From Candidatus Thiothrix anitrata (GTDB lineage Bacteria > Pseudomonadota > Gammaproteobacteria > Thiotrichales > Thiotrichaceae), in the NCBI RefSeq assembly GCF_017901155.1, contig NZ_CP072800.1, positions 645,283 to 709,282 of the forward strand: DNA of 64,000 bases. The letters run 5' to 3'. Numbering within the stretch: position 1 is the first letter of the stretch; every line of letters begins with the position of its first letter. The position numbers were made by a program, and so were the translations under genes. Below are positions 2 through 54,380 of the stretch, in pieces. Below the pieces are notes generated by a model that made no database searches, was not told where the DNA came from, and worked only from the letters and a program-made list of their open reading frames with translations.

Positions 2-1873
2 ATGGCGCGGATTGCCAAGTGCTTGGGGGATGCCGCGCATCGTTCTTTGGATGTAATGAAGTTAATGACTGAACGCCTGATGGGTTTGTTGCGTTTGTTT
101 GCCACGGTTGGTTTGACCTTGATTGTCAGTCTGGTGGTGTATAAGGCGATTCAAAGTGCTGATGTGGTGGTAGTTAAGCCGTTTGCTGTTCCCAAAGCCA
201 TTCAGGAAATCAATCCAGATAGCGGGCGAATTATTGCGACACAACTTGATATTGAGCTTAAAGATGCGGAATTATTGATCTATGACACCATTAAAAATGC
301 AGAACAGGCTTGGCAGGGACGTTCACGTTCTAATGCGGATGAATTGACCCAGATTACCGGCAGTGCGGCGGATTTTTTACTGGGTTCTAATATAAAACTG
401 CCTGAAACGGGTATTTCCATCAACGATGTGGTGGAGTTTATTTCCAGCGTTTTCGGGCGGCGCAATATCATTGGCTCGGTGTATCAGGATCAGGGCAAGT
501 TACACCTGCGGGTGGAGCTTGGCAGTGAAGTATTCGCCTATGAACGCTCCTTGGAGGGTGGGAGAGAGAAGGCTCTGAACTTTGATTTGATTCAGCAAAT
601 GCTGGAGGAAAGCCGTTCGGATTTACTTAGTGCAGCATCGCCACAACATAACCTGTATTACTATTGCTCCGGTAAAACCGAGCGGGTGCTGCATCAGGAT
701 AGCCGTTTTACTCAGTGGTTTGATTATTGTGCGCAATTGAAAAATCCACAGGGTGATATTGAGGATTTAACCCAGTTAATTGACACCCTTGAGCTGCTCA
801 ATGCGGAACGTGAAAAGGCAACGGATGGCAGTTTAATTTTGGGAAATGTTTTGTCTAACGCACTTGCTGATGCGCATCAAAAGTTGCAACCCATTTGCCC
901 TGATTATGAGAAAACCAAAGTTTGCGACCCTTCTGTGCAGGTGGCGGCAGCCGAATCCCCGTCTATGCCAGCACCGGTTGAAGTCGCTAACAGTCCTGCC
1001 ATCATTAGCTTTTTTACCCAAGATGATGATGCCAGTGTTGCACCTTCAACACTGCCTGCCCCCTCTGTTGCTTATCCCGAAGATGATGAGCCTGCTGAAA
1101 TCGTGGTTGCGCCGAGTATCATGACTGCCAACCCTGTTGCTGCTGATAATGCATCCACATCCCGTACATGGATTGCGGTGGAAGAGTTGCGTACTCTCTG
1201 GAGTGAGTGTGCAACGCGCCAAATCACTTCGGCGGAAGTGTTGGCCTCGAATCAAACAGAGTCGGAAGGCACGTTTTTATTCAATAATAATGTGCTACAG
1301 CCAGCGGTGGAAAAATACCGGGAGGCATTGCAGCAAAATTGCCGTAATGCGTTCGCATGGGCGAATCTGGGAGTGTTGTTAACAGGGCAATATCAGGCTG
1401 AAACAGCCGTATTCGCGCTGGAAACTGCCATGAGTTTGAATAGTCGAGCTGATTGGATTCCCAATAGTTTATGTATTGCCCAAGCTTATAATGATAAACC
1501 TGAACGAATGCTGGCGTATTTAACCCAAGCTAAACCGAGTGATCCGTGCAGCGTGGCTCGCAGGATTAATCCGGCAAACCGGATCGTTATGGATAGGCAG
1601 TTTTATCTTGCGGTAGCGGAGCGTTTCTTTACGTTGGGAAATTATGCGCAAGCGGCTGACACCTATCAGCAGGTGGTGAGCGTTGATAAAAAGCGGGATT
1701 GCACCACCAGTAAAGTTGTTAACCGCCTTTACACGTTGACAACCAAACACCAAGTCAAAGGTGCTTGGCAGGCGGCGTGTGCCATTCGCGACAGTGCTGT
1801 GCCATTGCTGGATGGGAAAGTGAGTAGCTGCGAGCCGGAATTAGTGGCGTTGCAATGTCCGGCTACGCAGTAA
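2..1873 (+). CDS. Membrane-anchored hypothetical protein with a Pro/Ala-rich linker and C-terminal TPR-like repeats
   Basis: The 623-aa ORF starts at the window edge (ATG at 2). An N-terminal TM segment (LMGLLRLFATVGLTLIVSLVVY) is followed by a low-complexity PAPS linker and TPR-like helices (NAFAWANLGVLLTGQYQAETAVFALETAMSLN). No family assignment is possible by eye. Confidence 0.55.
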   Translation: MARIAKCLGDAAHRSLDVMKLMTERLMGLLRLFATVGLTLIVSLVVYKAIQSADVVVVKPFAVPKAIQEINPDSGRIIATQLDIELKDAELLIYDTIKNAEQAWQGRSRSNADELTQITGSAADFLLGSNIKLPETGISINDVVEFISSVFGRRNIIGSVYQDQGKLHLRVELGSEVFAYERSLEGGREKALNFDLIQQMLEESRSDLLSAASPQHNLYYYCSGKTERVLHQDSRFTQWFDYCAQLKNPQGDIEDLTQLIDTLELLNAEREKATDGSLILGNVLSNALADAHQKLQPICPDYEKTKVCDPSVQVAAAESPSMPAPVEVANSPAIISFFTQDDDASVAPSTLPAPSVAYPEDDEPAEIVVAPSIMTANPVAADNASTSRTWIAVEELRTLWSECATRQITSAEVLASNQTESEGTFLFNNNVLQPAVEKYREALQQNCRNAFAWANLGVLLTGQYQAETAVFALETAMSLNSRADWIPNSLCIAQAYNDKPERMLAYLTQAKPSDPCSVARRINPANRIVMDRQFYLAVAERFFTLGNYAQAADTYQQVVSVDKKRDCTTSKVVNRLYTLTTKHQVKGAWQAACAIRDSAVPLLDGKVSSCEPELVALQCPATQ

Positions 1874-5758: not shown

Positions 5759-6592
5759 CTACACATAATCGTCACACGCCACGCTGTGTGGCACAGGATC
5801 GGGGGTGTCGAGCCTAATCGCTGTTAACTGTCCACCCCAAACGCAGCCAGTATCCAACGCAATCACCCGTGCGTCATTGTAATATCCCAAAGTTGACCAG
5901 TGCCCAAATACAACTCGCACCTCCAGCGGCTGGCGTTGCGGGTACAAAAACCACGGTATCAGCGTCAGCTTGCTAATATCAGTCGGCAAATAATCGCGGG
6001 GATTCCCTTTCGCATCAAACTCCAGACTGCCATCCAAGCGGCAATAACGCATTCGGGTAAAGGCGTTCAAAATGTAACGGTGGCGTTCAAATAACGCCGC
6101 GTGCGCGTCCCACTGATCTGGTTTGTCGCCATAAACCTGCGCTAACCATGCATGGGACGTGGGGGCAGCCAACTGTTGCTCTATTTCACGGGCGCAAGCT
6201 TGCGCCGTTGCAAGATTCCACTGGGGGGAAATACCTGCGTGACACAGTGCGTAACCCAATCCTGCATCCACATGCAACACCGGACGTTGCGCCAGCCAGT
6301 GAATTAAGTCCGGGTAATCGGGGGCTTCTACTAAGGCTTTCAGGCTTTTGTGCGGTTTACGTAAACCGTGAAAAGCCGCTATCAAACTGATGTCGTGATT
6401 GCCTAATACTGCCACCGCAGCAGTTCCCAGCGAACGCACCAGACGTAAGGTTTCCAGTGAGTGTTTGCCACGATTCACCAAATCACCAGCGAACCATAAA
6501 GTATCTGCACTGGGGTCAAAACGTAATTTTTCTAGCAGTTGCAGCAGGGGCTTATAACAGCCCTGAAGATCGCCAATCGCGTAAATTGCCAT
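5759..6592 (-). CDS. apaH: Bis(5'-nucleosyl)-tetraphosphatase, symmetrical (ApaH)
   Basis: The N-terminus is canonical (MAIYAIGDLQGCYKPLLQLLEKLRFDP...WFAGDLVNRG) and metallophosphoesterase motifs are present (GNHD). Confidence 0.9.
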   Translation of the reverse strand: MAIYAIGDLQGCYKPLLQLLEKLRFDPSADTLWFAGDLVNRGKHSLETLRLVRSLGTAAVAVLGNHDISLIAAFHGLRKPHKSLKALVEAPDYPDLIHWLAQRPVLHVDAGLGYALCHAGISPQWNLATAQACAREIEQQLAAPTSHAWLAQVYGDKPDQWDAHAALFERHRYILNAFTRMRYCRLDGSLEFDAKGNPRDYLPTDISKLTLIPWFLYPQRQPLEVRVVFGHWSTLGYYNDARVIALDTGCVWGGQLTAIRLDTPDPVPHSVACDDYV

Positions 6593-6724
6593 GCCTTTGT
6601 ATCCTGTTTTGCTCTGAACCCAAAAACCTTAAAGGATTAGGGCGTTTCCCCATATTCTCACAAATTTGGCACTATGCTCACCTTGAGATATTTCCATAGC
6701 TGAATAAATGAAAGGAGAATAACG

Positions 6725-7678
6725 GTGAGTGTAGATATTAAACAATTATTCGATGCCGAACCTCAATCACCCTTGTACGTTGCGATCAATCGGGTGCTGG
6801 TTAAAAACGATCCCAATCTCATGACCATGATGAAACAAGCTAGCTCTAAAATGTGCTTAGCAACGGCACTGACCCCCGGTTTTCGCGGATTTGATCTGAC
6901 TCGCCAGATGGGGGCGTGTCCCATGGGAATGCGTTGGGCAGCAAACACGGATATGGGGCAAGAACTGTCGCATATTTGGATTGATCAGTTCACCTACTGG
7001 GATAGCTGGCAAGCACACGAAGCCTTCCACGAAACTTTTGAAGATGTGGTTGTGGATGCTTGTGCACGTTGCGGCGAAGTACTGCTCGAAGGCCCTGAAG
7101 AACCTATTTATCGCATAGTTCATAGCAGCCTACCGAAACTGATTTCCCAAAATCAGTGGCTACAAAAGCATATGCAGGGTGATGCCGCTGGTTATGCGAT
7201 TGATTCCGGCAAGACGGTGACGGTGATGGCTACACACCGTATCAAGCCGGGCAAAGAAGCAGAATTTGAAGCGGCTGAAAAAGAAACCATGGAAAAGCTT
7301 AAGGAAACCACCGGAATGGTGGGTTACATGATCCTCAAGCGTATCGGTCAATCCACCTTGGGCAGCGGTCATGCGACAGTGGCCTCCATGCTGGAAGATA
7401 TGAAAGATAGCTCAGGTAGCAAGCTTAAGCGTACCGCCGAGGTATGGGAAGGTTACACCCTGCCTGCCGAATATCTGGTGATGGTAGAGTGGGAGAGCCT
7501 GTGTGATGCTCAAGGCGGAATGCCCCATGTGAATGTCAAACCTGAATTGTTATTCATTCATGGCCCTAGGGTGTTGGATAACTGTTTGGCCATGCCTACC
7601 GTGAGGATGTCCACCTCGATGTTCCGTGAGCAAACTTACCGTGAAGTGTTGAATCAGGCGGAAAATGCGATGAGTTAA
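6725..7678 (+). CDS. sor: Sulfur oxygenase/reductase (SOR) homolog
   Basis: The 317-aa protein is collinear with archaeal and bacterial SOR. YVAINRVLVKNDP and KMCLATALTPGFRGF hold the Cys31 equivalent. HEAFHETFED is the H-x3-H Fe site. CARCGEV is the C-x-x-C pair. GPEEPIYRIV and VEWESL...GMPHV are C-terminal blocks. The start is GTG at 6725, with AGGAG 10 nt upstream. Confidence 0.8.
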   Translation: MSVDIKQLFDAEPQSPLYVAINRVLVKNDPNLMTMMKQASSKMCLATALTPGFRGFDLTRQMGACPMGMRWAANTDMGQELSHIWIDQFTYWDSWQAHEAFHETFEDVVVDACARCGEVLLEGPEEPIYRIVHSSLPKLISQNQWLQKHMQGDAAGYAIDSGKTVTVMATHRIKPGKEAEFEAAEKETMEKLKETTGMVGYMILKRIGQSTLGSGHATVASMLEDMKDSSGSKLKRTAEVWEGYTLPAEYLVMVEWESLCDAQGGMPHVNVKPELLFIHGPRVLDNCLAMPTVRMSTSMFREQTYREVLNQAENAMS

Positions 7679-7797
7679 CAGAAAAATCATGGTTTTCTGT
7701 GAGGCTGGCTTGAAATTCTTTTTACTCCATGCTTTAAGATGCTTTACAATCGCCCCCTTACGCGCAGCGACTGCGTTTTTCTTTGAGATTTGGACAA

Positions 7798-9894
7798 ATG
7801 ACTGACTTAACACTTTACCGGAATATCGGCATTTTCGCCCACGTTGACGCGGGCAAAACCACCACTACCGAGCGTATCCTGAAACTCACGGGCAAAATCC
7901 ACAAGCTGGGTGAAGTTCACGATGGCGCAGCCACCACAGACTTTATGGTGCAGGAGCAGGAACGCGGGATCACCATCCAGTCGGCTGCAACCACCTGTTT
8001 CTGGAAAGGTCACCGTTTCAACGTTATCGACACCCCAGGGCACGTTGACTTCACCATCGAAGTTTACCGTTCACTGAAAGTTCTCGATGGCGGTGTGGGC
8101 GTATTCTGCGGTTCCGGCGGTGTTGAGCCTCAGTCTGAAACTAACTGGCGTTATGCGAATGATTCCAAAGTCGCACGTATTATTTACATCAACAAGCTTG
8201 ACCGTATCGGTGCTGACTACTACCGCGTAGTCAAACAGGTAGAAGATGTACTGGGCGCACGCCCAATGCCAATGACCTTGCCTATTGGTATTGAAGACAA
8301 TTTCGTGGGTGTCGTTGATCTGTTAACCCGTAAAGCATGGGTGTGGGACAACTCCGGCGATCCAATGAACTACACCATTCAAGACGTGCCTGCTGATATG
8401 GAAGGTCTGGTCGAAGAATGGCGTGAAAAGCTGATTGAAATGGCGGTCGAGCAAGACGACGATATGATGGAAATGTACCTCGGTGGTGAAGAACCAGCCT
8501 TGGAAGACATCAAGCGTTGTATCCGCAAAGGCACGATCAATCTGGACTTTTTCCCGACGTTCGCTGGCTCTTCTTTCAAAAACAAAGGTGTGCAGTTGGT
8601 GTTGGATGGCGTAGTTGATTACCTGCCAAGTCCGATTGATGTAAACCCACAGCCTGAAGTTGACTTGGAAGGTAATGCTACCGGCGAATTCGCGATTGTT
8701 GATGCTAACCGCCCACTGCGTGCCTTAGCGTTCAAAATCATGGATGACAAATACGGCGCGTTGACCTTTACCCGTATCTATTCTGGTACGATGAAAACTG
8801 GCGACACCATCCTCAACACATTTACCGGCAAAACAGAACGGGTCGGTCGCATGGTGGAAATGCACGCGGACGACGCAAACGCGATTGACTTCGCACAAGC
8901 GGGCGACATCATTGCGTTGGTTGGCCTGAAAAACGTGCAGACTGGTCATACCCTGTGTGATCCGAAAAACCCTGCAACCCTTGAGCCGATGGTATTCCCT
9001 GATCCGGTTATCTCTTTGGCAATTTCACCAAAGAACAAAGCTGGCGCGGAAAAAATGGGTGTGGCCCTCAATAAGATGGTCAAAGAAGACCCCTCTTTCC
9101 GCGTTGAAACTGACCAAGAAACTGGTGAAACCATCCTCAAAGGCATGGGCGAGCTGCACTTGGACATCAAAGTCGACATCTTGCTGCGTACTCACGGTGT
9201 TGAAGTTAACATCGGTAAACCACAAGTTGCTTACCGCGAATCTATCACTAGCCGGGTGGAAGACAGTTACACCCACAAGAAGCAGTCCGGTGGTTCTGGT
9301 CAATACGGTAAAATTGACTACACCATCGAACCGAACGAAGTTGGTGCGGGCTACGCGTTTGAATCCGTGGTTGTTGGTGGTTCCGTTCCGCGTGAATTCT
9401 GGCCTGCGGTTGACAAGGGCTTCAAGGAAAGCATGGTAAAAGGCCCATTGGCTGGTTACCCTGTGGTTGACGTGAAAGTAACGTTGCGCGAAGGTGCATA
9501 CCATGCGGTTGACTCCTCTGCCATCGCGTTTGAAATCGCAGCGAAAGGTGGTTTCCGTCAAACCATGCCAAAAGCTGGCCCGCAAATCCTTGAGCCAATC
9601 ATGAAGGTTGACGTATTTGCACCAGACTCTCACGTGGGTGATGTGATCGGTGACTTGAACCGTCGCCGTGCGATGATCAAGTCCCAAGATACCGCGCCTA
9701 TTGGTGCGCGTATCAAGGCTGACGTTCCACTTTCCGAAATGTTTGGTTACATCGGCGACTTGCGCACCATGACTTCCGGTCGCGGTCAGTTCTCGATGGA
9801 ATTCTCACATTATGCGGCTTGCCCACGCTCGGTTTCCGATCAGGTTATCAAAGAAGCGCAAGAACGTAAGAAAGCGTTGGATGCTGAGAAGTAA
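7798..9894 (+). CDS. fusA: Elongation factor G paralog (EF-G2-type translational GTPase)
   Basis: The G-domain is [22 protein letters not shown]...[12 protein letters not shown]...NKLDR. The full five-domain length is about 700 aa. The ORF track starts at TTG 7783, but ATG 7798 aligns with the EF-G N-terminus. There is no rpsL/rpsG/tuf context, so this is probably a second EF-G copy. Confidence 0.85.
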
Positions 9895-10057: not shown

Positions 10058-11245
10058 GTGGTCAATGGACAAGTTATTCTCAAACACGGACGCGATAAAA
10101 ACGTCCGCGCCCATCACCCGTGGGTATTTTCCGGCGCGGTCGATAAAGTCAAAGGCAAACCGCTATCCGGTGAAAGCGTGGAAGTACGCACTGCCAGCGG
10201 TGATTTACTCGGCATCGGTGCTTGGTCGCCTGCTTCACAAATTCAGGTGCGATTGTGGTCTTTCACCGATGTAAGCATTGACCGCGAATTTTTCGTGCAG
10301 CGCATCCAGCAAGCGTTGGCTTACCGGCAAGCATTGGGCATTCCACAACACAGCTCAGGCTACCGTTTAATCAATGCCGAATCCGATGGCTTGCCCGGTG
10401 TGGTGGTTGACGTGTTCGGCGACTGGCTGATTATGCAAGCCCTCACCGCTGGTGCGGAATATTGGAAACACACCATCGCTGAAGCCTTACTCAGCCTGAT
10501 TCCGGCGCAGGGCGTGTACGAACGTTCCGATGTGGAAGTGCGTAAAAAGGAAGGGTTAACCACCACCGTTGGCGTACTCAACGGCGCAACCCCGCCGCCA
10601 TTTATTGATATTCACGAGCATCAACGCCATTACCGTGTCGATGTTATCAATGGTCACAAAACCGGCTTTTACCTTGATCAACGCGATAATCGCAGCCTGT
10701 TGCAACACTATGCGCAGGATAAAACCGTTTTAAACTGTTTTTCTTACACCGGCGGGTTTTCGATTGCGGCTTTGCACGGCGGCGCGAGTCATGCCACCAA
10801 TATTGACGCTTCCCAACCAGCCTTGGATTTAGCCGCTGATGCCGCCACACTGAATGGTTTCGCCGCTGATCGTATGGAAAATATTTTCGGTGATGTGTTC
10901 AAATTATTGCGCGAATACCGTAACGAAGGCCGTCAGTTCGATGTGGTAGTGCTTGACCCACCCAAGTTTGCGGAAAGTCGTAACCAATTGGAAAAAGCCG
11001 CACGCGGTTACAAAGACATCAATTTACTCGGCTTTAAATTGCTGCGTCCGGGCGGTTTATTATTCACTTTTTCCTGTTCGGGCTTGATGGAAAGCGCGTT
11101 ATTCCAGAAAATAGTCGCTGATGCTGCCGTTGATGCCGGATGTGATGCGCGGATTCTCCACAAACTGGATCAAGCCACCGACCACCCGACACGCTTGGCA
11201 TTCCCCGAAGGCTATTATTTGAAGGGGTTGGTATGTCAGAAGTAG
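10058..11245 (+). CDS. rlmI: 23S rRNA (cytosine1962-C5)-methyltransferase RlmI
   Basis: The N-terminus has the RlmI PUA signature (LKHGRDKNVRAHHPWVFSGAVDKVKG), with a C-terminal SAM methyltransferase fold (VVLDPPKFAES). The start is GTG. Confidence 0.85.
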   Translation: MVNGQVILKHGRDKNVRAHHPWVFSGAVDKVKGKPLSGESVEVRTASGDLLGIGAWSPASQIQVRLWSFTDVSIDREFFVQRIQQALAYRQALGIPQHSSGYRLINAESDGLPGVVVDVFGDWLIMQALTAGAEYWKHTIAEALLSLIPAQGVYERSDVEVRKKEGLTTTVGVLNGATPPPFIDIHEHQRHYRVDVINGHKTGFYLDQRDNRSLLQHYAQDKTVLNCFSYTGGFSIAALHGGASHATNIDASQPALDLAADAATLNGFAADRMENIFGDVFKLLREYRNEGRQFDVVVLDPPKFAESRNQLEKAARGYKDINLLGFKLLRPGGLLFTFSCSGLMESALFQKIVADAAVDAGCDARILHKLDQATDHPTRLAFPEGYYLKGLVCQK

Positions 11246-11790
11246 AAACCACCACGGAACAACCTTCCACCAAGCAACGCCTGCTGGAGCTGTTCCAAAA
11301 ACTGTTGCCACTGGTAGACAGCGTTTCCGACAAAATCCGCTTTGCCGCGCTGTTGGGTTTTGGATTGGATGTGTGGATTTTCGTGTGGTTATATTTTATT
11401 AAGCAATTTTCGGCTGGTACGGCTTTGGTTGTCGCTGGAATTTTGCTGGTACCTGTCCTGATTCTGGTGCGTTTTTGGTGGGCACTGGAAGAAATCAAAG
11501 ACCTGCCTAACATTGCCGGACGCATGGTAGATGATGCGAAAGGGGAAATCCGTGAAACGGTGCAAGGCATTCAGGCGGGGCAAGTGCAAAAGCTAAGCTT
11601 TCTCGGTTCAGCGAAAAGCCTGTGGAGCATTGGTTCAATGGCGGGTGAAGCGCGGGAATTGCTGGGTTCTTACATTAGCATTGGCACTTTAGCCAATCCC
11701 TTCGCGCTGATTCTTGGCGCACTATCGCTGGTTGGTGTATTAGGTATGACTTTGCTGGGGCTGATTCTGTTAATGCTCACTTTATTTTGA
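11233..11790 (+). CDS. Hypothetical inner-membrane protein
   Basis: The 185-aa protein has 4-5 TM helices. It overlaps the rlmI stop by 13 nt and sits just upstream of creD. No recognisable family was found. Confidence 0.5.
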   Translation: MSEVETTTEQPSTKQRLLELFQKLLPLVDSVSDKIRFAALLGFGLDVWIFVWLYFIKQFSAGTALVVAGILLVPVLILVRFWWALEEIKDLPNIAGRMVDDAKGEIRETVQGIQAGQVQKLSFLGSAKSLWSIGSMAGEARELLGSYISIGTLANPFALILGALSLVGVLGMTLLGLILLMLTLF

Positions 11791-27413: not shown

Positions 27414-28052
27414 TTAACGGATGTAAGGGTTATTGCGGCGTTCCGTGCCTATATCGGTGTTGGAGCCGTGTCCCGGTACAACGGTCACATGATCACCGAG
27501 TGTCCACAATTGGGTTTTAATCGCAGTCATCAATTGCTGATGATTTCCGCCGGGAAAATCGGTGCGCCCCACAGAACCTTGAAACAACACATCACCGGCA
27601 AATACCACAGCAGTTTCACGCTGAAAAAATACCACATGCCCCGGCGTATGACCGGGTGTGTGTAAAACTTCCAATGTGATTTCACCGACTTGCAAGGTGT
27701 CCCCATGCTGTAACCAGCGGGTCGGCACAAATGCGTCGGAATGCGGCAAGCCGAAACGTTGCGCCTGCACTGGCAAGGCATCCAGCCAGTATTTATCGGC
27801 TTCGTGAGGGCCACTGACCGGAATCGCGTAATGTGCCACCAGTGCCAGCGTACCGCCCACATGATCCAAATGCCCGTGGGTCAAAAACACCCCAATCGGA
27901 GTCAAGCCGCGCTGTTCCACAGCAGCAATCAACGCTTCCACGTCGCCACCGGGATCAACAAAGGCACAGGTTTTGGTGGCTTCGCACCAGATAATACTGC
28001 AATTTTGCGCAAAGGCCGTGACAGGAAGGCTGATGTATTGCATAAACGTCAT
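27414..28052 (-). CDS. MBL-fold metallo-hydrolase (glyoxalase II-like)
   Basis: THGHLDHVGG (the HxHxDH motif) and the downstream GHTPGH are present. Confidence 0.8.
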   Translation of the reverse strand: MTFMQYISLPVTAFAQNCSIIWCEATKTCAFVDPGGDVEALIAAVEQRGLTPIGVFLTHGHLDHVGGTLALVAHYAIPVSGPHEADKYWLDALPVQAQRFGLPHSDAFVPTRWLQHGDTLQVGEITLEVLHTPGHTPGHVVFFQRETAVVFAGDVLFQGSVGRTDFPGGNHQQLMTAIKTQLWTLGDHVTVVPGHGSNTDIGTERRNNPYIR

Positions 28053-28081: not shown

Positions 28082-28885
28082 GTGGAATGGTACTTAGTGG
28101 TTGCCTTTCTGGCATTGGGCGGGGTCGTGGGATTTCTTGCGGGCTTGTTGGGTATTGGCGGCGGCGGGGTCATGGTTCCGGTATTAACCGCCTTATTCGT
28201 AGGGCAGGCGTTCCCGACGGAACAGGTGGTGCATCTGGCGTTAGGCACGTCAATGGCTGCGATTGTGCCGACCGCACTGTCGAGTTTATGGGCGCACCAT
28301 CGTAAAGGCGCGGTATTGTGGAACGTGGTGCAGCGGATTACACCGGGTATTCTGTTCGGTACGTTTGCGGGAACATTTTTAGCGAGCTATTTATCAACCA
28401 ACAGTCTGGCGATCTTTTTCGCGTGTTTCATGGCGTATGTCGCCTTACAAATGTGGCTGGGTATCAAGCCAACGCCGCATCGTGATGTACCGGGCATGGT
28501 GGGTTTATCCGCAACCGGTGCGGGCATTGGGGGAATTTCCGCGCTGGTAGCGATTGGTGGCGGTACGCTTTCCGTGCCGTTTTTGATGTGGTGCAACGTC
28601 AATATCCGCCAAGCGATTGCGACTTCTTCCGCGATTGGCTTTCCGATTGCGCTGGCGGGAACCGTGGGTTACGTGCTGAATGGCTGGCAGGTTGCGGGTT
28701 TACCGCCGTATACGCTGGGCTTTGTGTATTGGCCTGCGGTGGTGCTGATTGCACTGGTCAGTTTTTTCACCACTAGTTTGGGTGCAAACCTTGCACACAG
28801 TTTACCCGTGGCGGCGTTAAAGAAAGTATTTGCGGTATTGCTGGTGTTGCTCAGTGCGAAAATGTTGCACTCGGTGTTTGCGTAA
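28082..28885 (+). CDS. TSUP family sulfite exporter TauE/SafE
   Basis: The two-fold repeat membrane protein has GGGGV motifs (LLGIGGGGVMVPVL; AIGGGTLSVPFLM). The start is GTG. Confidence 0.85.
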   Translation: MEWYLVVAFLALGGVVGFLAGLLGIGGGGVMVPVLTALFVGQAFPTEQVVHLALGTSMAAIVPTALSSLWAHHRKGAVLWNVVQRITPGILFGTFAGTFLASYLSTNSLAIFFACFMAYVALQMWLGIKPTPHRDVPGMVGLSATGAGIGGISALVAIGGGTLSVPFLMWCNVNIRQAIATSSAIGFPIALAGTVGYVLNGWQVAGLPPYTLGFVYWPAVVLIALVSFFTTSLGANLAHSLPVAALKKVFAVLLVLLSAKMLHSVFA

Positions 28886-35453: not shown

Positions 35454-36695
35454 ATGTACCATAGAATAATACAAATGAAACGCTTTTATACCAATATCTT
35501 ACAAAACGAACTGCTGGGACAGCGGCAAATGCTGTTTGTCTCTGGATCCCGTCAGGTCGGCAAAACCACACTGGCAAAAGCCATCGTTGAACAGCAACAC
35601 GGGCAATACTACAACTGGGATAACCGCCAGCATCGGCAATGGATTCTGGAAAGCGTCAGCAATATGAGCAACGCTACCCTGCTTAATCAGATGGGTGTGC
35701 ATGAGTTACACGACCAGCGGGCAGTGGTGGTTTTCGACGAATTGCACAAGTACAAGGACTGGAAAAACTACCTCAAAGGCTTGTTTGACTTGTACGAACA
35801 ACAACTGGCGGTGTTGGCGACGGGCAGTGCGCGGATGGATATTTTCCGCAAGGGTGGCGATAGCCTGATGGGGCGTTATTTCCATTACCGGATGCACCCC
35901 TTGAGTTTGCGTGAAATCAGTGCGCCTTTTGTCGCTGGGCAATTGCTGCAAGACCCGCATAAACCCGAACCCACTGCGCTGGAACAGTTACGCCGTTTTG
36001 GTGGTTTCCCTGAGCCATTCCTCAAAGCGGATACCCGTTTTTACAACCGTTGGCAGCAATTACGCCAGCAACAACTGATTCAGGAAGACATCCGCGACAC
36101 CAATACCGTGCAAGACATCGCCCATCTGGATGTACTCGCCACCCTGTTGCGGGAACAATGTGGGCAGGTGGTGCGTTACAGCTCGCTGGCAAACCAGATC
36201 AATGTCAGTGTGGATACCATCCGCCGCTGGGTGACGCTGCTGGAAAGTTTCTACTATGCCTTTCGGGTTACGCCTTGGTTCAATAATCTTGCATCTGCCT
36301 TGCGCAAAGAGCCGAAAATCTATCTGTGGGATTGGTCGCAGGTGAAAGACATCGGTGCGAAAAACGAAAATCTGATTGCCAGCCATTTGCTCAAAGCCGT
36401 GCATTGGTGGACAGATCATGGGTTGGGCGATTACCAACTGCATTATTTGCGCACCAAAGACCAGAAAGAAGTCGATTTCCTCATCAGCCGCGATAACCAG
36501 CCCTGGTTGTTGGTGGAAGTGAAAAGTTCTGCCAACCAACCGCTTAACAAGCATCTGGGCTGGTTTCAGGAACAACTGGGTGCGGAACATGCCTTGCAGG
36601 TGGTGATGGATATGCCGTATGTGGAAGCGGATTGCTTTGCAGTGGGAAAGCCTGTGAAAGTGCCGGTGGAGACGTTGTTGATGCGGTTGGTTTGA
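35454..36695 (+). CDS. AAA+ superfamily ATPase with DUF4143 C-terminal domain
   Basis: Walker A is SGSRQVGKTTL, Walker B is VVVFDELH, and a C-terminal DUF4143-like region follows. Confidence 0.7.
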   Translation: MYHRIIQMKRFYTNILQNELLGQRQMLFVSGSRQVGKTTLAKAIVEQQHGQYYNWDNRQHRQWILESVSNMSNATLLNQMGVHELHDQRAVVVFDELHKYKDWKNYLKGLFDLYEQQLAVLATGSARMDIFRKGGDSLMGRYFHYRMHPLSLREISAPFVAGQLLQDPHKPEPTALEQLRRFGGFPEPFLKADTRFYNRWQQLRQQQLIQEDIRDTNTVQDIAHLDVLATLLREQCGQVVRYSSLANQINVSVDTIRRWVTLLESFYYAFRVTPWFNNLASALRKEPKIYLWDWSQVKDIGAKNENLIASHLLKAVHWWTDHGLGDYQLHYLRTKDQKEVDFLISRDNQPWLLVEVKSSANQPLNKHLGWFQEQLGAEHALQVVMDMPYVEADCFAVGKPVKVPVETLLMRLV

Positions 36696-36696
36696 G

Positions 36697-37840
36697 TGCC
36701 AATATGGCGAATTCGTATCATAAGTGCATAACCCGTTAATCGAGACGGGATGCGGCTTTCCTCATAAGGTCAGAGGCAAGATGTGGTAAAAAGCATCCCG
36801 AAAAACCACTGACGGGAGAGCTTCATGACTTACACACACCTTACCTCTGAGGAGAGGTATTATATCGAAACACGGCACAAGATGAAGGAGTCGGAGTCAA
36901 CAATAGCCCTCGCCTTGGGGCGCAGCCAATCGACGATCCACCGTGAACTGACCCGCAACCGAGGGCAACGCGGCTACCGGCACAAACAAGCGCACGCCAA
37001 AGCACAGCAACGGCATGTTGAGAAGCCCAAGGTGGTCAAGTTGACCCCAGAGCTGGCGGGCAACATTGGTACATTGTTGGAAGAACAGCAGTGGAGTCCA
37101 GAGCAAATCAGTGGCAGGCTGAAAGCCGATGGTAAAGCGAGTGTTTGCCATGAAACCATCTACCAGCACGTGCTGAAGGATAAGCGTGCGGGCGGTAAGC
37201 TATACCTGAACCTGCGCCGTCATGCGAAGAAATACCGCAAACGTTATGGTAGTGGCACTGGCAGTGTCAAAGGCATCCCTAACCGGGTGGACATTGAGGA
37301 ACGCCCGGAAGTCGCCAACCAGCGTGAACGGCTGGGCGACTGGGAAGCGGACACCATGATTGGCAAGAGTCACAAAGGCGCACTGGTGACGCTGGACGAA
37401 CGCAAATCCAAGCTACGCCTAGCTCTACCGGTGGCAAACAAGACCGCAGAGGCAGTGACCAGCAGCATTATTAGCTTACTGTCCGGCTTCAAGGATTACG
37501 TACACACGCTCACCTTCGATAACGGCAAGGAGTTTGCCAAACATGAGCAAGTTGCCCAAGCCATTGGGTGCGAAACGTATTTCGCCAAGCCCTACCATTC
37601 GTGGGAGCGTGGGCAAAATGAGAATGCCAATGGGCTGTTACGCCAATACTTCCCCAAGGCAATGGGGCTATTGGACGTGACCACCCGACAGGTAGTTGAG
37701 GCTGTGCATAAACTCAACAACAGACCAAGGAAGTGTCTGGGGTTCAAGACACCTTACGAGGTGTTCCGCGAGCTATCCGGCATGGATGCTGAAAAGTTGG
37801 TGGGTTATGCACTTATTACTTGAATTCACCAATCTGGTCT
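36697..37840 (+). mobile_element. IS30-family insertion sequence (about 1.15 kb) with imperfect terminal inverted repeats
   Basis: IRL is TGGCGAATTCGTATCATAAGTGCATA (36705..36730). IRR (reverse complement of 37807..37832) is TGGTGAATTCAAGTAATAAGTGCATA, matching at about 21 of 26 positions. An intact transposase lies inside. Confidence 0.75.
36825..37823 (+). CDS. IS30 family transposase (DDE)
   Basis: An N-terminal HTH (IALALGRSQSTIHRELTRN) is followed by the IS30 DDE core (GDWEADTMIG...LTFDNGKEF...NENANGLLRQYFPK). Confidence 0.9.
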   Translation: MTYTHLTSEERYYIETRHKMKESESTIALALGRSQSTIHRELTRNRGQRGYRHKQAHAKAQQRHVEKPKVVKLTPELAGNIGTLLEEQQWSPEQISGRLKADGKASVCHETIYQHVLKDKRAGGKLYLNLRRHAKKYRKRYGSGTGSVKGIPNRVDIEERPEVANQRERLGDWEADTMIGKSHKGALVTLDERKSKLRLALPVANKTAEAVTSSIISLLSGFKDYVHTLTFDNGKEFAKHEQVAQAIGCETYFAKPYHSWERGQNENANGLLRQYFPKAMGLLDVTTRQVVEAVHKLNNRPRKCLGFKTPYEVFRELSGMDAEKLVGYALIT

Positions 37841-38377: not shown

Positions 38378-41300
38378 TTAGCGTGGCACTGCACCGTAGA
38401 TAACGAAGTTCGCGTTGGCATCCGTATTTACGGGGTGCACCATAATATTCCCCAACAAAATGTTAAGGTCATTGCTTGGCCCGGAAAATACCGTCAAACC
38501 ATCCAAATTCAAATCGGTAGCGTAATAACCTGCCATTCTGAAATGCGTCGTTACTAGAGTATTTTCTGGTGCAATTAAGATCGCGCCCAACATAATATTA
38601 GTATCACTACCCGGCCCAGAACCCACTACCGAATTGCTATTATTACTATCACCAGCCCACAGAAACGCCTTATCATCTACCAAATAACGCTGATTTTCAC
38701 CGTAAACCGGATAAGTTGGCTTGGTAAAATCAAGCGGCACGGCAGTTTCACCCAAACTCAACGGCATCGCTGTCATCAGCCCGATATGATTGCGATGACG
38801 CAGCACCACGTAATAGCTTCCCGGTGCGACGCCTCGGAATACAATATTGGTAGAACCGGTTGCTGCATTAATGACATCACCATCACGTTGTAACAAAGCC
38901 GCCTTCCCTGCCACACGTCGTGCCGGATTAGCCACCTCACGCAACTCCAACAATACCCAGTCTACGGGCGCATTCTCCGCTGTCATCGCGGCAACGCTGT
39001 CACTGATACGCTCATCGCCGTGATAATTGAACGGTGGAATACCCTCAAACACCGTGTAACCAAAACTAGTCACCAATTTATTAAACGGCTGCGGCTTGGG
39101 CACATACCCTTTAGTAAACAGCTGATTGTTCATCAAAGCCGTTTGAGCGTTATATGCTCCTTGCAAATACGCCCGCATAGACAAGTGTACACTTGGCTCG
39201 TCGTTGTTATCCAAATAATTAGAAATCCCATCATCATCGCTATCAATCGCATCTGAAGGGTTGCCATCACCATTAGGATCAGCACGTTCAGTGCTTGTCA
39301 ACTTACCGTCACCATCATCATCGGCATCCAAATAATCCGGCTTGTCATCACTGTCGGTATTCCGTGCATCTGCTGGATTACCATCACCATTGGAATCAGC
39401 CATCTCATGCTGAGTTAAAATACCATCACCATCATCATCAGGGTCACGGTAATCGGGAATACCATCACTATCCGTATCTTTTCCGTTACTAAATGGATCT
39501 ACCGTGCCCGACTCAATTTCGTATTGATCAAGAATGCCATCAGCATCTGTATCTTCTGGTACATCGGTAATTTTGACGGTCAATTTTTGGGTAGTACAAC
39601 CGCCTTTACTATCGCAAACCGTAACCTGCACCTCGTAAGTGTTCTTTTTATCCACATCCAACGGACGCTCAAAGTCAGGTACTCCTGTAAACTCCAGCCA
39701 ACCTTTAGCAGGGTGCATCGTAAATGCCCATTTATCTTCCCCACCGGTAATCAACCATGTCAAACCATTGCCTTCGATGTCACCATCCGCATCCGTTGCG
39801 TCATAGTCCAGTACCAATAAGTTGGAAGTGTTTTCCACATAACTTTGGGTATGCGTGGCGGCATTACTACCGGGCAGGATAACGGGCAAAGCGTTTTCAG
39901 TGGTGTCATCGGTAACAGTCACGTTTATGCTCTGCTTTGCCGTCAATTTGCCGTCACTTACCGTCACTTGTACCAGGTAGCTGTTGTTTTTATCCGCATC
40001 CGCAGGCTTTTCATAATCCGGGGCACTAATGAACCGTAATACGCCCGTGTTGGCATTAATCACAAACTTGCTGCCATCGACTCCGCCGCTAATACTGTAG
40101 CTAAGGGTATCACCATCAACGTCGCTACCTTTCACCGTACTCACTGCCGTGGTGTTTTCCAAAACGGAAACGCTCGCGGTAGCGGCTAGGCTGGGAGCTT
40201 CATTGACGTTAACCAAGCTCACAGTTAAGGTCTGCTTTGCCGTCAATTTGCCGTCACTTACCGTCACTTGTACCAAGTAGCTGTTGTTTTTATCCGCATC
40301 CGCAGGCTTTTCATAATCCGGGGCACTAATGAACCGTAATACCCCTGTGCTGGCATCAATCACAAACTTGCTGCCATCGGCTCCACCGCTAATACTGTAG
40401 CTAAGGGTATCACCATCAACGTCGCTACCTTTCACCGTACTCACTGCCGTGGTGTTTTCCAAAACGGAAACGCTCGCGGTAGCGGCTAGGCTGGGAGCTT
40501 CATTGACGTTAACCAAGCTCACAGTTAAGGTCTGCTTTGCCGTCAATTTGCCGTCACTTACCGTCACTTGTACCAGGTAGCTGTTGTTTTTATCCGCATC
40601 CGCAGGCTTTTCATAATCCGGGGCACTAATGAACCGTAATACGCCCGTGTTGGCATTAATCACAAACTTGCTGCCATCGACTCCGCCGCTAATACTGTAG
40701 CTAAGGGTATCACCATCAACGTCGCTACCTTTCACCGTACTCACTGCCGTGGTGTTTTCCAAAACGGAAACGCTCGCGGTAGCGGCTAGGCTGGGAGCTT
40801 CATTGACGTTAACCAAGCTCACAGTTAAGGTCTGCTTTGCCGTCAATTTGCCGTCACTTACCGTCACTTGTACCAGGTAGCTGTTGTTTTTATCCGCATC
40901 CGCAGGCTTTTCATAATCCGGGGCACTAATGAACCGTAATACGCCCGTGTTGGCATTAATCACAAACTTGCTGCCATCGACTCCGCCGCTAATACTGTAG
41001 CTAAGGGTATCACCATCAACGTCGCTACCTTTCACCGTACTCACTGCCGTGGTGTTTTCCAAAACGGAAACGCTCGCGGTAGCGGCTAGGCTGGGAGCTT
41101 CATTGACGTTAACCAAGCTCACAGTTAAGGTCTGCTTTGCCGTCAATTTGCCGTCACTTACCGTCACTTGTACTAGGTAGCTGTTGTTTTTATCCGCATC
41201 CGCAGGCTTTTCATAATCCGGGGCACTAATGAACCGTAATACGCCCGTGTTGGCATTAATCACAAACTTGCTGCCATCGACTCCGCCGCTAATACTGTAG

Positions 41301-43228: not shown

Positions 43229-43438
43229 AGCCCAGTTCTTTTGATTATTATGGTGTGACGTGCCCCGGCACAACACCTGTAACGCCAATGTTACTGTATT
43301 AAACCGTTACTTTTCCACTTTAAGTACGCCGCTTGTCTGATAGTACCGTTAGCGGGTGTTGTGAAGCTGATTTTATCCGCATAATCAATCTTACCCAAAC
43401 TAACCAATCATAATAACAATAACGCACAGGGTACTTGC

Positions 43439-45908: not shown

Positions 45909-47138
45909 ATGTTGAGTTACATAGACTGGATTATTATCTTAATCGCACTGATCGCTATGGGGATTGCGTTGCTGCTATTTTTCCTCCCCGCTAGTGACAA
46001 CAGCGCGCAAACTGCATTGCGTGATCTGCGCTTGCAAGCCGAAAAAGACCGTAAACGCATTGCTGACGTGCTGGAAGTGACCCAACACGGCGCGAAAGAT
46101 GCAGAAAATTTGGTGCATAAATTACGTAGCCAAGTCGATGACATTAGCCACAACCATCAAACCAGCCAAGCCAAAATCGAGCAGGCTGAGCATATTATTG
46201 AACGGGTGCGGGCGGCTGAACACGAGATGCGTGATATTTCCACCCAACTAGGTGAACGTTTACAACATTTACAAAGCTACTGGGATGAACAACTTGGCGA
46301 CTCCATCGAGAGCGTACAGCGCATCAAAAGTAAGCTCAAAGAAGGTTTAGAGCATGTTGATGACAGCCTGTTCCGCTTGCGTGATCAAGAAAAAATGGCG
46401 CAGGGCTTCACCCGTAAGTTAATTGAGCACCATCAGGAACAAGTACAAAACCAACAAGAAAACTCACGTTTATCGGCAGCAGTACATACCCGTTTAGAAG
46501 ACATGTTGAAAGAATCTGGTCATTTACTGGAGAAAATGCAGCGTTACCAGCAAGATGCTGACGCAGTATTCAATAGCTTCAGCCAAGAAATGTCCGGTTT
46601 GGAAAGCCAAGCGAGTGAACACTTCACGGGTGTATTCCAAACCACTGATCAAGCCCGCACTGAATTGCTGGCAGGATTGGATGAAAGCCGCCAGCTCTTG
46701 AGTGAAATGCGCTTACGCGAGGCACAAAGCGATGATCTGACGCGCCGCGTTATCCAGCAATTCGAGCAAATTGATCACTTACGGGTCGAGCGTATCAGCA
46801 AAACACTGGATCTAACCGACCAGATTTCTACCGATTTGCATAACGGTGTCACCAGTGCACGCCAAATGCTGGCAACCCTAGAACGTGCTGTGTCTGATGT
46901 TTCTGCGACCTTGACGGATAACCCCACACCCGTAGCGACCAAACCGTTGCATATTGCCAGCGTGGAACCATTGATAACGGCTGCACCAGTGCATACCGAC
47001 AAGAGCGTCAGCAATATCCATAACGTTACCGACGACAAAGCACTACTGGACGTTTTGAGTGACCTAACGCCGGTGGAACTTACTGATAGCACGGAGGATA
47101 TGCAGCGTAATCTGGTATCATTACGTGCATATCGCTAA
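45909..47138 (+). CDS. Membrane-anchored coiled-coil protein (hypothetical)
   Basis: An N-terminal TM (IIILIALIAMGIALLLFFL) is followed by about 330 aa of Q/E/R-rich heptad-like coiled coil and a Thr/Val-rich C-terminal tail. Confidence 0.55.
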   Translation: MLSYIDWIIILIALIAMGIALLLFFLPASDNSAQTALRDLRLQAEKDRKRIADVLEVTQHGAKDAENLVHKLRSQVDDISHNHQTSQAKIEQAEHIIERVRAAEHEMRDISTQLGERLQHLQSYWDEQLGDSIESVQRIKSKLKEGLEHVDDSLFRLRDQEKMAQGFTRKLIEHHQEQVQNQQENSRLSAAVHTRLEDMLKESGHLLEKMQRYQQDADAVFNSFSQEMSGLESQASEHFTGVFQTTDQARTELLAGLDESRQLLSEMRLREAQSDDLTRRVIQQFEQIDHLRVERISKTLDLTDQISTDLHNGVTSARQMLATLERAVSDVSATLTDNPTPVATKPLHIASVEPLITAAPVHTDKSVSNIHNVTDDKALLDVLSDLTPVELTDSTEDMQRNLVSLRAYR

Positions 47139-54371: not shown

Positions 54372-54380
54372 GAGTAAGGC

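What the first reader, a model, noticed from the sequence alone, without database searches (positions are those of the whole stretch)
6725..7678. Complete sulfur oxygenase reductase (SOR) homolog in a gammaproteobacterial chromosome
The 317-aa product aligns along its length with Acidianus/Aquifex SOR. Every residue that SOR chemistry needs is conserved. That includes the persulfide-forming Cys (KMCLATALTPGF), the C-x-x-C pair (CARCGEV) and the 2-His-1-carboxylate mononuclear Fe site (HEAFHE ... EEPIYR). SOR is a rare enzyme that disproportionates S0 with O2 to sulfite, thiosulfate and sulfide without cofactors. It is known mainly from thermoacidophilic archaea and a few bacteria. Here it is a stand-alone gene with its own SD (AGGAG), between apaH and an EF-G paralog, in a genome that also carries a TauE/SafE sulfite exporter. 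This suggests a cytoplasmic S0-disproportionation route that parallels Sox/Dsr in a filamentous sulfur oxidiser.
Basis: partly seen in the sequence, partly recalled or inferred. Interest (0 to 1): 0.8.

Follow-up and report, generated by a model that had tools for sequence, protein, structure and literature searches.

The report
Known-type sulfur oxygenase reductase gene
The gene is a genuine, intact sulfur oxygenase reductase in the filamentous sulfur bacterium Candidatus Thiothrix anitrata, but GenBank already names it as such and it is 72% identical to a characterised, structurally solved enzyme, so it is a correct but ordinary call.

Summary
Window 6725..7678 (+) is a 317-aa ORF with a GTG start and an AGGAG Shine-Dalgarno 7 nt upstream. 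It matches Pfam SOR (PF07682) end to end at 213.8 bits (cutoff 25).

All six catalytic residues are in register with Acidianus SOR: C44=C31, H98=H86, H102=H90, C113=C101, C116=C104, E126=E114.

It is not new. The exact protein is WP_210228311.1, [quoted passage not shown]. It is 72% identical to Thioalkalivibrio paradoxus SOR (TpSOR, PDB 9rdn). TpSOR is a 24-mer with an 80 °C optimum and, per its paper's title, atypically low reductase activity.

The gene belongs to a well-populated gammaproteobacterial clade: at least 120 clusters at 90% identity and 54 GTDB species genomes. Within Thiothrix it is an accessory gene. It is present beside an EF-G paralogue in T. anitrata and T. winogradskyi and cleanly absent from the same site in T. 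sulfatifontis and T. lacustris. It is under strong purifying selection (dN/dS about 0.01).

There is no conserved sulfur-gene neighbour, and the TauE gene lies 20 kb away, unlinked.

The likely function is cytoplasmic, O2-dependent oxidation of zero-valent sulfur, mainly to sulfite. Its role in the cell is untested. Interest is low.

The parts
6725..7678 (+). sor coding sequence, 317 aa plus stop. Identical to WP_210228311.1 / QTR50619.1, 'sulfur oxygenase reductase family protein' of Ca. Thiothrix anitrata.
   Evidence: ORF list. Pfam SOR 213.8 bits. PDB 9rdn E = 1.9e-156. Exact-sequence look-up.
6713..6717 (+). Shine-Dalgarno AGGAG, 7 nt upstream of the GTG start.
   Evidence: Read directly from the sequence. 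The start position agrees with the N-termini of TpSOR and the other Thiothrix SORs.
6854..6856 (+). Codon for Cys44, equivalent to the essential substrate-binding Cys31 of archaeal SOR.
   Evidence: Alignment. Invariant in 120/120 clade members and in 5 distant representatives. The role of Cys31 is taken from PMC7398979.
7016..7030 (+). Codons for His98 to His102 (HEAFH), equivalent to iron ligands His86 and His90.
   Evidence: Ligand roles from PMC7398979.
7061..7072 (+). Codons for Cys113 to Cys116 (CARC), equivalent to Cys101 and Cys104.
7100..7102 (+). Codon for Glu126, equivalent to the bidentate iron ligand Glu114.
7157..7195 (+). Shortened chimney loop (about residues 145-157). It is 7 residues shorter than in archaeal SOR. 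F133 becomes W145, V137 is deleted and F141 becomes H149.
   Evidence: MAFFT alignment with StSOR, AaSOR and 9rdn. W145 is invariant in the close clade. The shorter loop is shared with TpSOR/9rdn.
6665..6678 (+). Upstream block TTTGGCACTATGCT, conserved in three Thiothrix sor loci. Candidate promoter or regulatory site, unproven.
   Evidence: Alignment of upstream regions of the window, L055 and L002. It resembles a sigma-54 -24 element, but the -12 GC is imperfect.
7659..7674 (+). Junction where homology to the T. winogradskyi sor gene ends and homology to its EF-G upstream region begins. The 2.6-kb HisKA/response-regulator pair found there is absent here, and the last 4-5 SOR residues differ.
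   Evidence: blastn of the window against L055. C-termini and junction sequences.
5759..6592 (-). Flank: apaH, divergently oriented. Not functionally linked and not conserved next to sor in other species.
7783..9894 (+). Flank: EF-G-family paralogue with its own promoter-like site at 7721-7750. It is the only neighbour shared with the sor loci of other Thiothrix species.

Best explanation
This is a bona fide, intact, chromosomal sor gene of the gammaproteobacterial, TpSOR-like clade in Candidatus Thiothrix anitrata.

Shown here: it is a full-length SOR-family protein. It has the 2-His-1-carboxylate iron site (H98, H102, E126), the essential cysteine (C44) and the CxxC pair (C113, C116). It has no signal peptide or membrane segment, so it is cytoplasmic. 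It is under strong purifying selection. It is an accessory gene inherited vertically within a Thiothrix subclade.

Inferred from 72% identity to the characterised and solved T. paradoxus enzyme, and from the archaeal structures: it assembles into a hollow homo-24-mer. Zero-valent sulfur (linear polysulfide or persulfide sulfur) enters the sphere, is bound as a persulfide or polysulfide on Cys44, and is oxygenated by O2 at the mononuclear non-haem iron to sulfite. Thiosulfate forms non-enzymatically, and there is probably only minor H2S formation.

Inferred for the cell: SOR itself conserves no energy. The sulfite would be oxidised by the cytoplasmic SoeABC or AprBA/Sat systems, which belong to the Thiothrix core genome. 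That would give an O2-dependent bypass of reverse Dsr for stored sulfur.
For: Identity:
- Pfam SOR 213.8 bits against a cutoff of 25, full length.
- 13 SOR chains in the PDB match. The best is 9rdn at E = 1.9e-156, which is exactly WP_006748120.1 of T. paradoxus ARh 1 and 72% identical over 313 residues.
- The exact protein is named SOR family in NCBI, UniRef and JGI.

Residues:
- All six catalytic residues align and are invariant in 120/120 clade members and 5 distant representatives.
- Alanine mutants of these residues abolish or reduce activity about 10-fold in StSOR (PMC7398979).
- The Zn-site histidines (H171, H279) and pore Met299 are also conserved.

Cytoplasmic location: maximum Kyte-Doolittle 19-residue hydropathy is 0.95, and the N-terminus is not hydrophobic.

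Selection: dN/dS is 0.010-0.012 against three other Thiothrix copies.

Vertical descent:
- GC content equals that of the flanks.
- 82.6% nucleotide identity to T. winogradskyi sor matches the genome ANI of below 81.4%.
- The Thiothrix copies are monophyletic.
- The EF-G neighbour is shared.

Sulfite sinks: SoeABC and AprAB/Sat are in the Thiothrix core genome (PMC8570282).

A gammaproteobacterial Sor protein was detected in the metaproteome of a mesophilic, sulfur-storing gas-vent biofilm (PMC8056087).
Against: - No activity, expression or oligomer data exist for any Thiothrix SOR.
- The NCBIfam equivalog model NF047630 scores only 182 bits against a cutoff of 400, so curated rules do not treat this clade as an automatic functional equivalent of the archaeal enzyme.
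- TpSOR has its optimum and melting point at 80 °C (PMC6060420). Activity at the temperature of a sulfidic spring may therefore be low.
- The chimney thought to admit sulfur is shorter and lacks two of three hydrophobic ring residues, and trimer-channel Arg99 is Asp. Substrate entry may differ.
- How zero-valent sulfur from the stored sulfur inclusions would reach a cytoplasmic SOR is unknown.
- No sulfur gene is linked to sor in the window or consistently across 54 loci.
- The in-vivo role is undetermined even in Thioalkalivibrio (PMC6382920).
Confidence: 0.85

Rival explanations
1. The enzyme is a catalytically competent SOR but physiologically marginal in Thiothrix. It would be a thermozyme working far below its optimum, serving at most as an overflow or detoxification sink for cytoplasmic sulfane sulfur when O2 is plentiful, rather than as a real energy-pathway branch parallel to rDsr.
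For: TpSOR, the nearest characterised homologue, has an 80 °C optimum, and HnSOR from a mesophile is described as a 'thermozyme' (title cited). The gene is accessory: the syntenic site is empty in T. sulfatifontis and T. lacustris, which still have the sulfur-oxidation genes the papers assign to the Thiothrix core genome. The Thiothrix genome papers describe complete sulfur oxidation without it. It has no operon partners.
Against: dN/dS of about 0.01, with synonymous sites saturated between species, shows long-term strong selection to keep the protein. A gammaproteobacterial Sor protein is abundant enough to be detected in a mesophilic biofilm metaproteome.
Confidence: 0.3
2. The gene is a recent horizontal acquisition, a mobile cassette, rather than a resident Thiothrix gene.
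For: The distribution is patchy. A clean 1.28-kb presence/absence polymorphism sits in an otherwise syntenic block. Genomic context varies across the gammaproteobacterial clade. The clade also includes MAGs labelled delta proteobacterium and Desulfobacterales.
Against: GC content is indistinguishable from the flanks. No integrase, transposase or repeats lie at the borders. Divergence between the T. anitrata and T. winogradskyi copies (82.6% nt) equals the genome-wide ANI (below 81.4%). The Thiothrix copies are monophyletic and keep the same EF-G neighbour. Any transfer therefore predates the species split. Ancient gain in one lineage and loss in the other cannot be told apart here.
Confidence: 0.1
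3. The gene is an inactive relic or pseudogene, or the ORF arose by chance.
For: None beyond the lack of experimental data and the altered C-terminal 4-5 residues at the deletion junction.
Against: The reading frame is intact and full length, with a Shine-Dalgarno site. All catalytic residues are retained. dN/dS is about 0.01. E-values are as low as 1e-156.
Confidence: 0.02

Closest known systems
Thioalkalivibrio paradoxus ARh 1 sulfur oxygenase reductase (TpSOR; WP_006748120.1; PDB 9rdn; Ruhl et al. 2017, J Bacteriol 199:e00675-16)
   Same: 72% identity over the full length with one 1-residue gap. Both share the 13-residue N-terminal extension, the chimney loop shortened by 7 residues, Phe in place of Met297, and the extra cysteines C65 and C287. 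All six catalytic residues are the same. They fall in the same gammaproteobacterial clade.
   Different: The host is a neutrophilic freshwater filamentous Thiothrix, not a haloalkaliphilic soda-lake unicell. Position 145 is Trp, which is invariant in the 120 closest relatives, whereas TpSOR has Phe. Position 111 is Asp against Thr in TpSOR, and position 149 is His against Arg. No biochemistry exists for the Thiothrix protein.
Archaeal SORs: Acidianus ambivalens (2cb2), A. tengchongensis (3bxv), Sulfurisphaera tokodaii (6m35)
   Same: They align over residues 18-311 against 5-308 with E = 1e-39 to 1e-44. The iron ligands, Cys31/101/104, Zn-site His166/His277 and pore Met296 equivalents are identical. 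The fold and 24-mer architecture are presumably the same.
   Different: Identity is only about 33-37%. The score is below the NCBIfam equivalog cutoff (182 against 400). The chimney is 7 residues shorter and lacks V137 and F141 equivalents. Trimer-channel Arg99 is Asp and Met297 is Phe. The host is a mesophilic neutrophile rather than a thermoacidophile.
SOR genes of other Thiothrix: T. winogradskyi CT3 (CP091244), Ca. T. namsaraevi, uncultured Thiothrix MAGs
   Same: 95-96% amino-acid identity. The upstream motif is the same and so is the EF-G paralogue neighbour.
   Different: In T. winogradskyi a convergent HisKA/response-regulator pair (2.6 kb) separates sor from EF-G, and the upstream gene is not apaH. 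In the window that pair is absent and the SOR C-terminal tail differs.

Membership tests
Sulfur oxygenase reductase family (Pfam PF07682; EC 1.13.11.55) | Full-length match to the SOR profile above the curated gathering score | tested here: met
   213.8 bits against a cutoff of 25. Protein residues 17-306 cover profile positions 2-300 of 300.
Sulfur oxygenase reductase family (Pfam PF07682; EC 1.13.11.55) | Mononuclear non-haem iron site: 2-His-1-carboxylate triad (His86, His90, Glu114 in Acidianus numbering) | tested here: met
   H98, H102 and E126 are in register. They are invariant in 120/120 close and 5 distant homologues.
Sulfur oxygenase reductase family (Pfam PF07682; EC 1.13.11.55) | Essential Cys31 plus the Cys101-x-x-Cys104 pair in the active-site pocket | tested here: met
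   C44, C113 and C116 are aligned and invariant.
Sulfur oxygenase reductase family (Pfam PF07682; EC 1.13.11.55) | Hydrophobic chimney (tetramer channel) lined by Phe133, Val137 and Phe141 | tested here: not met
   W145 aligns with F133. V137 falls in a 4-residue deletion. H149 aligns with F141, and the loop is 7 residues shorter overall. The shorter loop is shared with the solved TpSOR, so it is a clade variant and does not exclude membership.
Sulfur oxygenase reductase family (Pfam PF07682; EC 1.13.11.55) | Active-site pore methionines Met296 and Met297 | tested here: inconclusive
   M299 is conserved. Position 300 is Phe in all 120 clade members and in TpSOR.
Sulfur oxygenase reductase family (Pfam PF07682; EC 1.13.11.55) | Soluble cytoplasmic protein with no signal peptide | tested here: met
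   No hydrophobic N-terminus and no segment above 0.95 mean hydropathy.
Sulfur oxygenase reductase family (Pfam PF07682; EC 1.13.11.55) | Hollow homo-24-mer | not testable with these tools
   Inferred only from 72% identity to TpSOR, which PMC6060420 describes as having 24 identical subunits.
Sulfur oxygenase reductase family (Pfam PF07682; EC 1.13.11.55) | O2-dependent conversion of S0 to sulfite, thiosulfate and H2S without external cofactors | not testable with these tools
   Requires an enzyme assay.
NCBIfam NF047630 SulOxRed (equivalog of the archaeal-type enzyme) | Score at or above the curated equivalog cutoff of 400 bits | tested here: not met
   182 bits. This fits the RefSeq name 'SOR family protein' rather than 'sulfur oxygenase/reductase'.
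Gammaproteobacterial TpSOR-like SOR clade | High full-length identity to TpSOR and placement inside the clade | tested here: met
   72% identity. The NJ tree places the Thiothrix copies inside the clade with Thioalkalivibrio, Chromatiaceae and Ectothiorhodospiraceae.
Gammaproteobacterial TpSOR-like SOR clade | Clade-specific traits: N-terminal extension, shortened chimney loop, Phe300, Cys65 and Cys287 | tested here: met
Gammaproteobacterial TpSOR-like SOR clade | High oxygenase but atypically low reductase activity | not testable with these tools
   Known only for TpSOR, from the title and citations of Ruhl et al. 2017. That paper is not held in the library.

The most novel reading that the evidence does not exclude
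In a subset of Thiothrix species, SOR is a physiologically important O2-dependent sulfur oxygenase that bypasses reverse Dsr when stored sulfur is oxidised at high O2. Its presence or absence would then separate ecological niches within the genus. The clade-specific features (shortened chimney, Trp145, Asp111, extra invariant Cys65 and Cys287) would adapt it to a carrier-bound persulfide or polysulfide substrate at moderate temperature rather than to bulk S8. T. winogradskyi CT3 is a cultured strain with a 96% identical gene, and close relatives have an empty site, so this would offer a tractable system for the still-open question of what SOR does in mesophilic bacteria.
Probability: 0.25. Interest if true: 0.45.

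Novelty: already known. Interest (0 to 1): 0.15.

Why it matters
As a discovery it matters little. The gene is correctly annotated in public databases. Its clade has a characterised and structurally solved member. The idea of SOR as a cytoplasmic side-route in sulfur-storing Gammaproteobacteria is already published.

Some value remains. The Thiothrix genome and pangenome papers I read list Sox, rDsr, Soe, Apr/Sat, SQR and FCSD but never mention sor. The analysis here shows sor is an accessory gene under strong selection, with a clean present/absent polymorphism between closely related species. One carrier, T. winogradskyi CT3, is culturable, so the genus offers a natural comparison for testing the unresolved in-vivo role of SOR in mesophiles.

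Tried and rejected
- The primary TpSOR paper (PMC5287398) and Veith et al. 2011 (PMC3128934) are not held. TpSOR properties were taken second-hand from PMC6060420, PMC6382920 and PMC7398979.
- A search for '9RDN' in the literature found nothing. Its identity was settled by exact-sequence look-up instead.
- I looked for a conserved functional partner next to sor in 54 related loci. No neighbour cluster occurs in more than 11 loci, and those that recur are housekeeping genes by my reading of their sequences, unscanned: SbcB-like, TsaB-like, a quinone oxidoreductase and a NUDIX protein. A BicA-like SulP transporter also recurs (870.7 bits against a cutoff of 880).
- A SoeABC-like trio follows sor in only two related Ectothiorhodospiraceae MAGs, and no curated model confirms it.
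- The TauE link is rejected: the gene is 20 kb away and is a generic anion-exporter family. The metallo-beta-lactamase-fold gene beside TauE is not a confident persulfide dioxygenase. It is below the GloB and Blh cutoffs.
- A sigma-54 promoter reading of the conserved upstream TGGCAC block was considered. The -12 element is TTGG or TCAC instead of TTGC, so it is left as unproven.
- The large dS gap between sor (2.3) and the adjacent EF-G (0.33) first suggested separate histories. The published ANI of below 81.4% shows sor is typical and EF-G is the conserved outlier.
- The weak ABM-domain hit (16.2 bits against a cutoff of 23.1) was not pursued.
- Structure prediction was not run, because a solved structure at 72% identity makes it uninformative.

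Full report
**Observation**

Window 6725..7678 (+) is an uninterrupted 317-codon ORF starting with GTG. AGGAG lies at 6713-6717, 7 nt upstream of the start. The gene sits 132 nt from a divergently oriented apaH at 5759..6592 (NCBIfam NF001204, 335.8 bits against a cutoff of 176). It lies 104 nt upstream of an EF-G-family gene at 7783..9894 that has its own promoter-like site.

**Family tests**

- Pfam PF07682 (SOR) matches end to end at 213.8 bits against a gathering score of 25.
- Against the PDB, thirteen chains match and eleven are SORs. Acidianus ambivalens 2cb2 aligns residues 18-311 to 5-308 at E = 5e-43.
- The best match is 9rdn at E = 1.9e-156.
- An exact-sequence look-up shows 9rdn is WP_006748120.1, the SOR of Thioalkalivibrio paradoxus ARh 1. 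This is the biochemically characterised TpSOR, and it is 72% identical (224/313, one gap) to the window protein.
- The same look-up shows the window protein is exactly WP_210228311.1 / QTR50619.1, already named 'sulfur oxygenase reductase family protein [Candidatus Thiothrix anitrata]', on a 3.55-Mb contig.
- The NCBIfam equivalog model built on archaeal-type enzymes scores 182 bits against a cutoff of 400. That explains the 'family protein' wording in RefSeq.

**Residues**

I aligned the protein with S. tokodaii SOR, A. ambivalens SOR and 9rdn. I used the mutagenesis and structural roles summarised in PMC7398979.

Conserved:
- Cys44 = Cys31, which is essential.
- His98, His102 and Glu126 = the iron ligands His86, His90 and Glu114.
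- Cys113 and Cys116 = Cys101 and Cys104.
- His171 and His279 = the Zn-site His166 and His277.
- Met299 = pore Met296.

The six catalytic positions are invariant in all 120 closest database homologues and in five distant family representatives.

Different from the archaeal enzymes:
- Arg99 is Asp111.
- Met297 is Phe300.
- Phe133 is Trp145.
- The chimney loop is 7 residues shorter and has no Val137 or Phe141 equivalents.

TpSOR/9rdn shares the shorter chimney loop and the Phe at position 300, and it also lacks Arg99 (it has Thr there), so these look like clade traits. Trp145 is not shared, since TpSOR keeps Phe there, but Trp is invariant in the 120 closest homologues. Cys65 and Cys287 are also invariant in the clade but absent from archaeal SORs. 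The protein has no signal peptide or hydrophobic segment, so it is cytoplasmic.

**How common is it?**

In a library of 1.84 billion representatives at 50% identity, only 58 clusters match at E <= 1e-3, and most of those are fragments. SOR is therefore a small family in sequence space. The window protein's own clade is nonetheless well populated:
- 418 clusters at 90% identity match, and the top 120 are all at least 77% identical.
- 54 loci were found in GTDB species genomes. They are labelled Thiothrix, Thiotrichaceae, Thioalkalivibrio, Ectothiorhodospiraceae, Chromatiaceae, Halochromatium, Lamprobacter, Thiohalocapsa, Sedimenticolaceae and others.

A neighbour-joining tree puts the Thiothrix copies in a tight monophyletic group inside this gammaproteobacterial clade. 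The clade also contains TpSOR and is separated by a long branch from the archaeal and other SORs.

**Context and evolution**

No sox, dsr, soe or apr gene was found among the window ORFs scanned (nearly all those of 120 aa or more). The surroundings are LrgAB, ApaH, EF-G, an RlmI-like methyltransferase, CreD, iPGM, pyrimidine genes and similar housekeeping genes. The TauE/SafE gene is at 28082..28885, 20 kb away. Across the 54 related loci, no neighbour cluster occurs in more than 11, so sor is a stand-alone gene with variable context.

Within Thiothrix the picture is sharper.
- In T. winogradskyi CT3 the order is IlvD, M23 peptidase, a 276-aa gene, SOR, HisKA, a response regulator, then EF-G.
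- Ca. T. sulfatifontis and a T. lacustris MAG have the same block without SOR. 1,282 bp are replaced by 207 bp, and the flanks are 85% identical.
- T. nivea has no sor near its EF-G orthologue.
- In the window, the HisKA/regulator pair is missing instead. The sor 3' end is fused at about 7659/7674 to the EF-G upstream region, which changes the last 4-5 residues.

Several results argue against recent transfer:
- GC content across sor equals that of the flanks.
- No mobile-element genes or terminal repeats border it.
- dN/dS against three other Thiothrix copies is 0.010-0.012.
- Synonymous divergence from T. winogradskyi is saturated (dS about 2.3), whereas the adjacent EF-G shows 0.33. The published ANI of T. 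winogradskyi to all other Thiothrix is below 81.4% (PMC9319827). So sor at 82.6% nucleotide identity is genome-typical, and EF-G is the unusually conserved gene.

Together these indicate an accessory gene that has been resident and selected since before the two species diverged. It was either gained in that lineage or lost from the lacustris/sulfatifontis lineage. The data here cannot polarise the event.

**Mechanism**

By homology, the protein should form the hollow 24-mer with a 2-His-1-carboxylate iron site described for SORs, including TpSOR (PMC6060420; PMC7398979). The steps are:
1. Zero-valent sulfur enters the sphere.
2. It is bound on Cys44.
3. O2 oxygenates it to sulfite at the iron.
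4. Thiosulfate forms chemically from sulfite and sulfur.
5. The disproportionation branch gives H2S (reaction scheme in PMC7398979).

The nearest characterised enzyme was published as 'a sulfur oxygenase ... with atypically low reductase activity' (title cited). It has its optimum and melting point at 80 °C. For the Thiothrix enzyme, oxygenation to sulfite is therefore the better guess than balanced disproportionation, and its rate at spring temperature is uncertain.

Thiothrix core genomes encode cytoplasmic SoeABC and AprAB/Sat to oxidise the sulfite, and rDsr as the canonical S0-to-sulfite route (PMC8570282). SOR would thus be an O2-dependent bypass that conserves no energy itself. All of this physiology is inference. 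The in-vivo role is stated to be undetermined even in Thioalkalivibrio (PMC6382920).

**Comparison with the literature**

SOR in mesophilic Gammaproteobacteria is established: HnSOR, TpSOR and three Thioalkalivibrio strains. A free-living relative of the Zoothamnium symbiont is likewise drawn with cytoplasmic Sor (PMC10952691).

The two Thiothrix genome papers I checked do not mention sor at all. The only gap is one of discussion, not of annotation.

**Verdict**

The finding is already known: an annotated orthologue of a characterised, structurally solved enzyme, in a clade that is common among gammaproteobacterial sulfur oxidisers. Interest is low at 0.15.

The most novel reading still open is that SOR is a niche-defining, physiologically important sulfur oxygenase in some Thiothrix species. 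That could be tested in cultured T. winogradskyi against sor-less relatives.

Noticed in passing
L055 7674-8955 against L059 4129-4335 and L061; window 7659-7674: There is a clean presence/absence polymorphism of a 1.28-kb sor cassette inside an otherwise syntenic block (IlvD, M23, a 272/276-aa gene, [SOR], HisKA, RR, EF-G) among Thiothrix species. In the window, a separate 2.6-kb absence of the HisKA/response-regulator pair fuses the sor 3' end to the EF-G leader.
   Followed up: yes
window 6665-6678 (also 6606-6613 and 6622-6632); L055 about 7948-7961: Sequence blocks upstream of sor are conserved in three Thiothrix species despite about 82% genome-level identity. TTTGGCACTATGCT resembles a sigma-54 -24 element, but the -12 element is imperfect (TTGG or TCAC instead of TTGC). 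It may be a regulatory site.
   Followed up: partly
window 6917-6919 (Cys65) and 7583-7585 (Cys287): Two further cysteines are invariant in all 120 close homologues and in TpSOR. Archaeal SORs have Ile/Leu/His and Leu at these positions. Their role (disulfide, sulfur relay or structural) is unknown.
   Followed up: partly
window 7783-9894 against L055 11668-13776: The EF-G paralogue next to sor is unusually conserved between species: 98% amino-acid identity, 92.5% nucleotide identity including its leader, and dS of 0.33 against about 2.3 for sor. Genome ANI is below 81.4%. One database source names a relative 'EF-G paralog VC2342'. A terminator-like hairpin (7762-7776) sits in its leader just after a promoter-like site (7721-7750).
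   Followed up: partly
L008 and L009 (Ectothiorhodospiraceae MAGs), three genes immediately downstream of sor: In these MAGs sor is followed by a molybdopterin oxidoreductase of about 950 aa with no apparent Tat signal in its N-terminus, a 243-aa 4Fe-4S subunit and a membrane subunit of about 330 aa. This is a SoeABC-like (cytoplasmic sulfite:quinone oxidoreductase) architecture. If confirmed, it would be the only sulfur-related linkage seen for this SOR clade. No curated model passes its cutoff.
   Followed up: partly
window 27414-28052 (-) and 28082-28885 (+): A TauE/SafE-family exporter is divergently paired with a 211-aa metallo-beta-lactamase-fold protein. The latter is below the GloB cutoff (106.5 against 200.8 bits) and has only weak similarity to the Blh sulfurtransferase/dioxygenase. 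This pairing may be more relevant to sulfite handling than the distant sor, but it is unproven.
   Followed up: partly
window 38378-43288 (-): A 1,636-aa protein with many cadherin and bacterial Ig (Big_9) repeats plus DUF11. It is probably a large surface adhesin, which would fit an attached, filamentous lifestyle.
   Followed up: no
window 53337-56692 (+): Three consecutive T2SSE-family ATPase genes (344, 385 and 385 aa), possibly PilT/PilU-type twitching-motility ATPases in tandem.
   Followed up: no
window 35454-36695 (+), 36825-37823 (+), 51401-52555 (-): Two AAA_14/DUF4143 ATPase genes and an HTH_38/rve integrase-type (IS-like) gene. These are the only mobile-element-like content in the window, and they lie about 29 kb from sor.
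   Followed up: no
window 2-1873 (+), 11233-11790 (+), 45909-47138 (+): Sizeable ORFs (623, 185 and 409 aa) have no Pfam hit, and the first two have no NCBIfam hit either. The 185-aa ORF has homologous DNA in other Thiothrix loci (L002, L059 at about 70-72% nucleotide identity).
   Followed up: no
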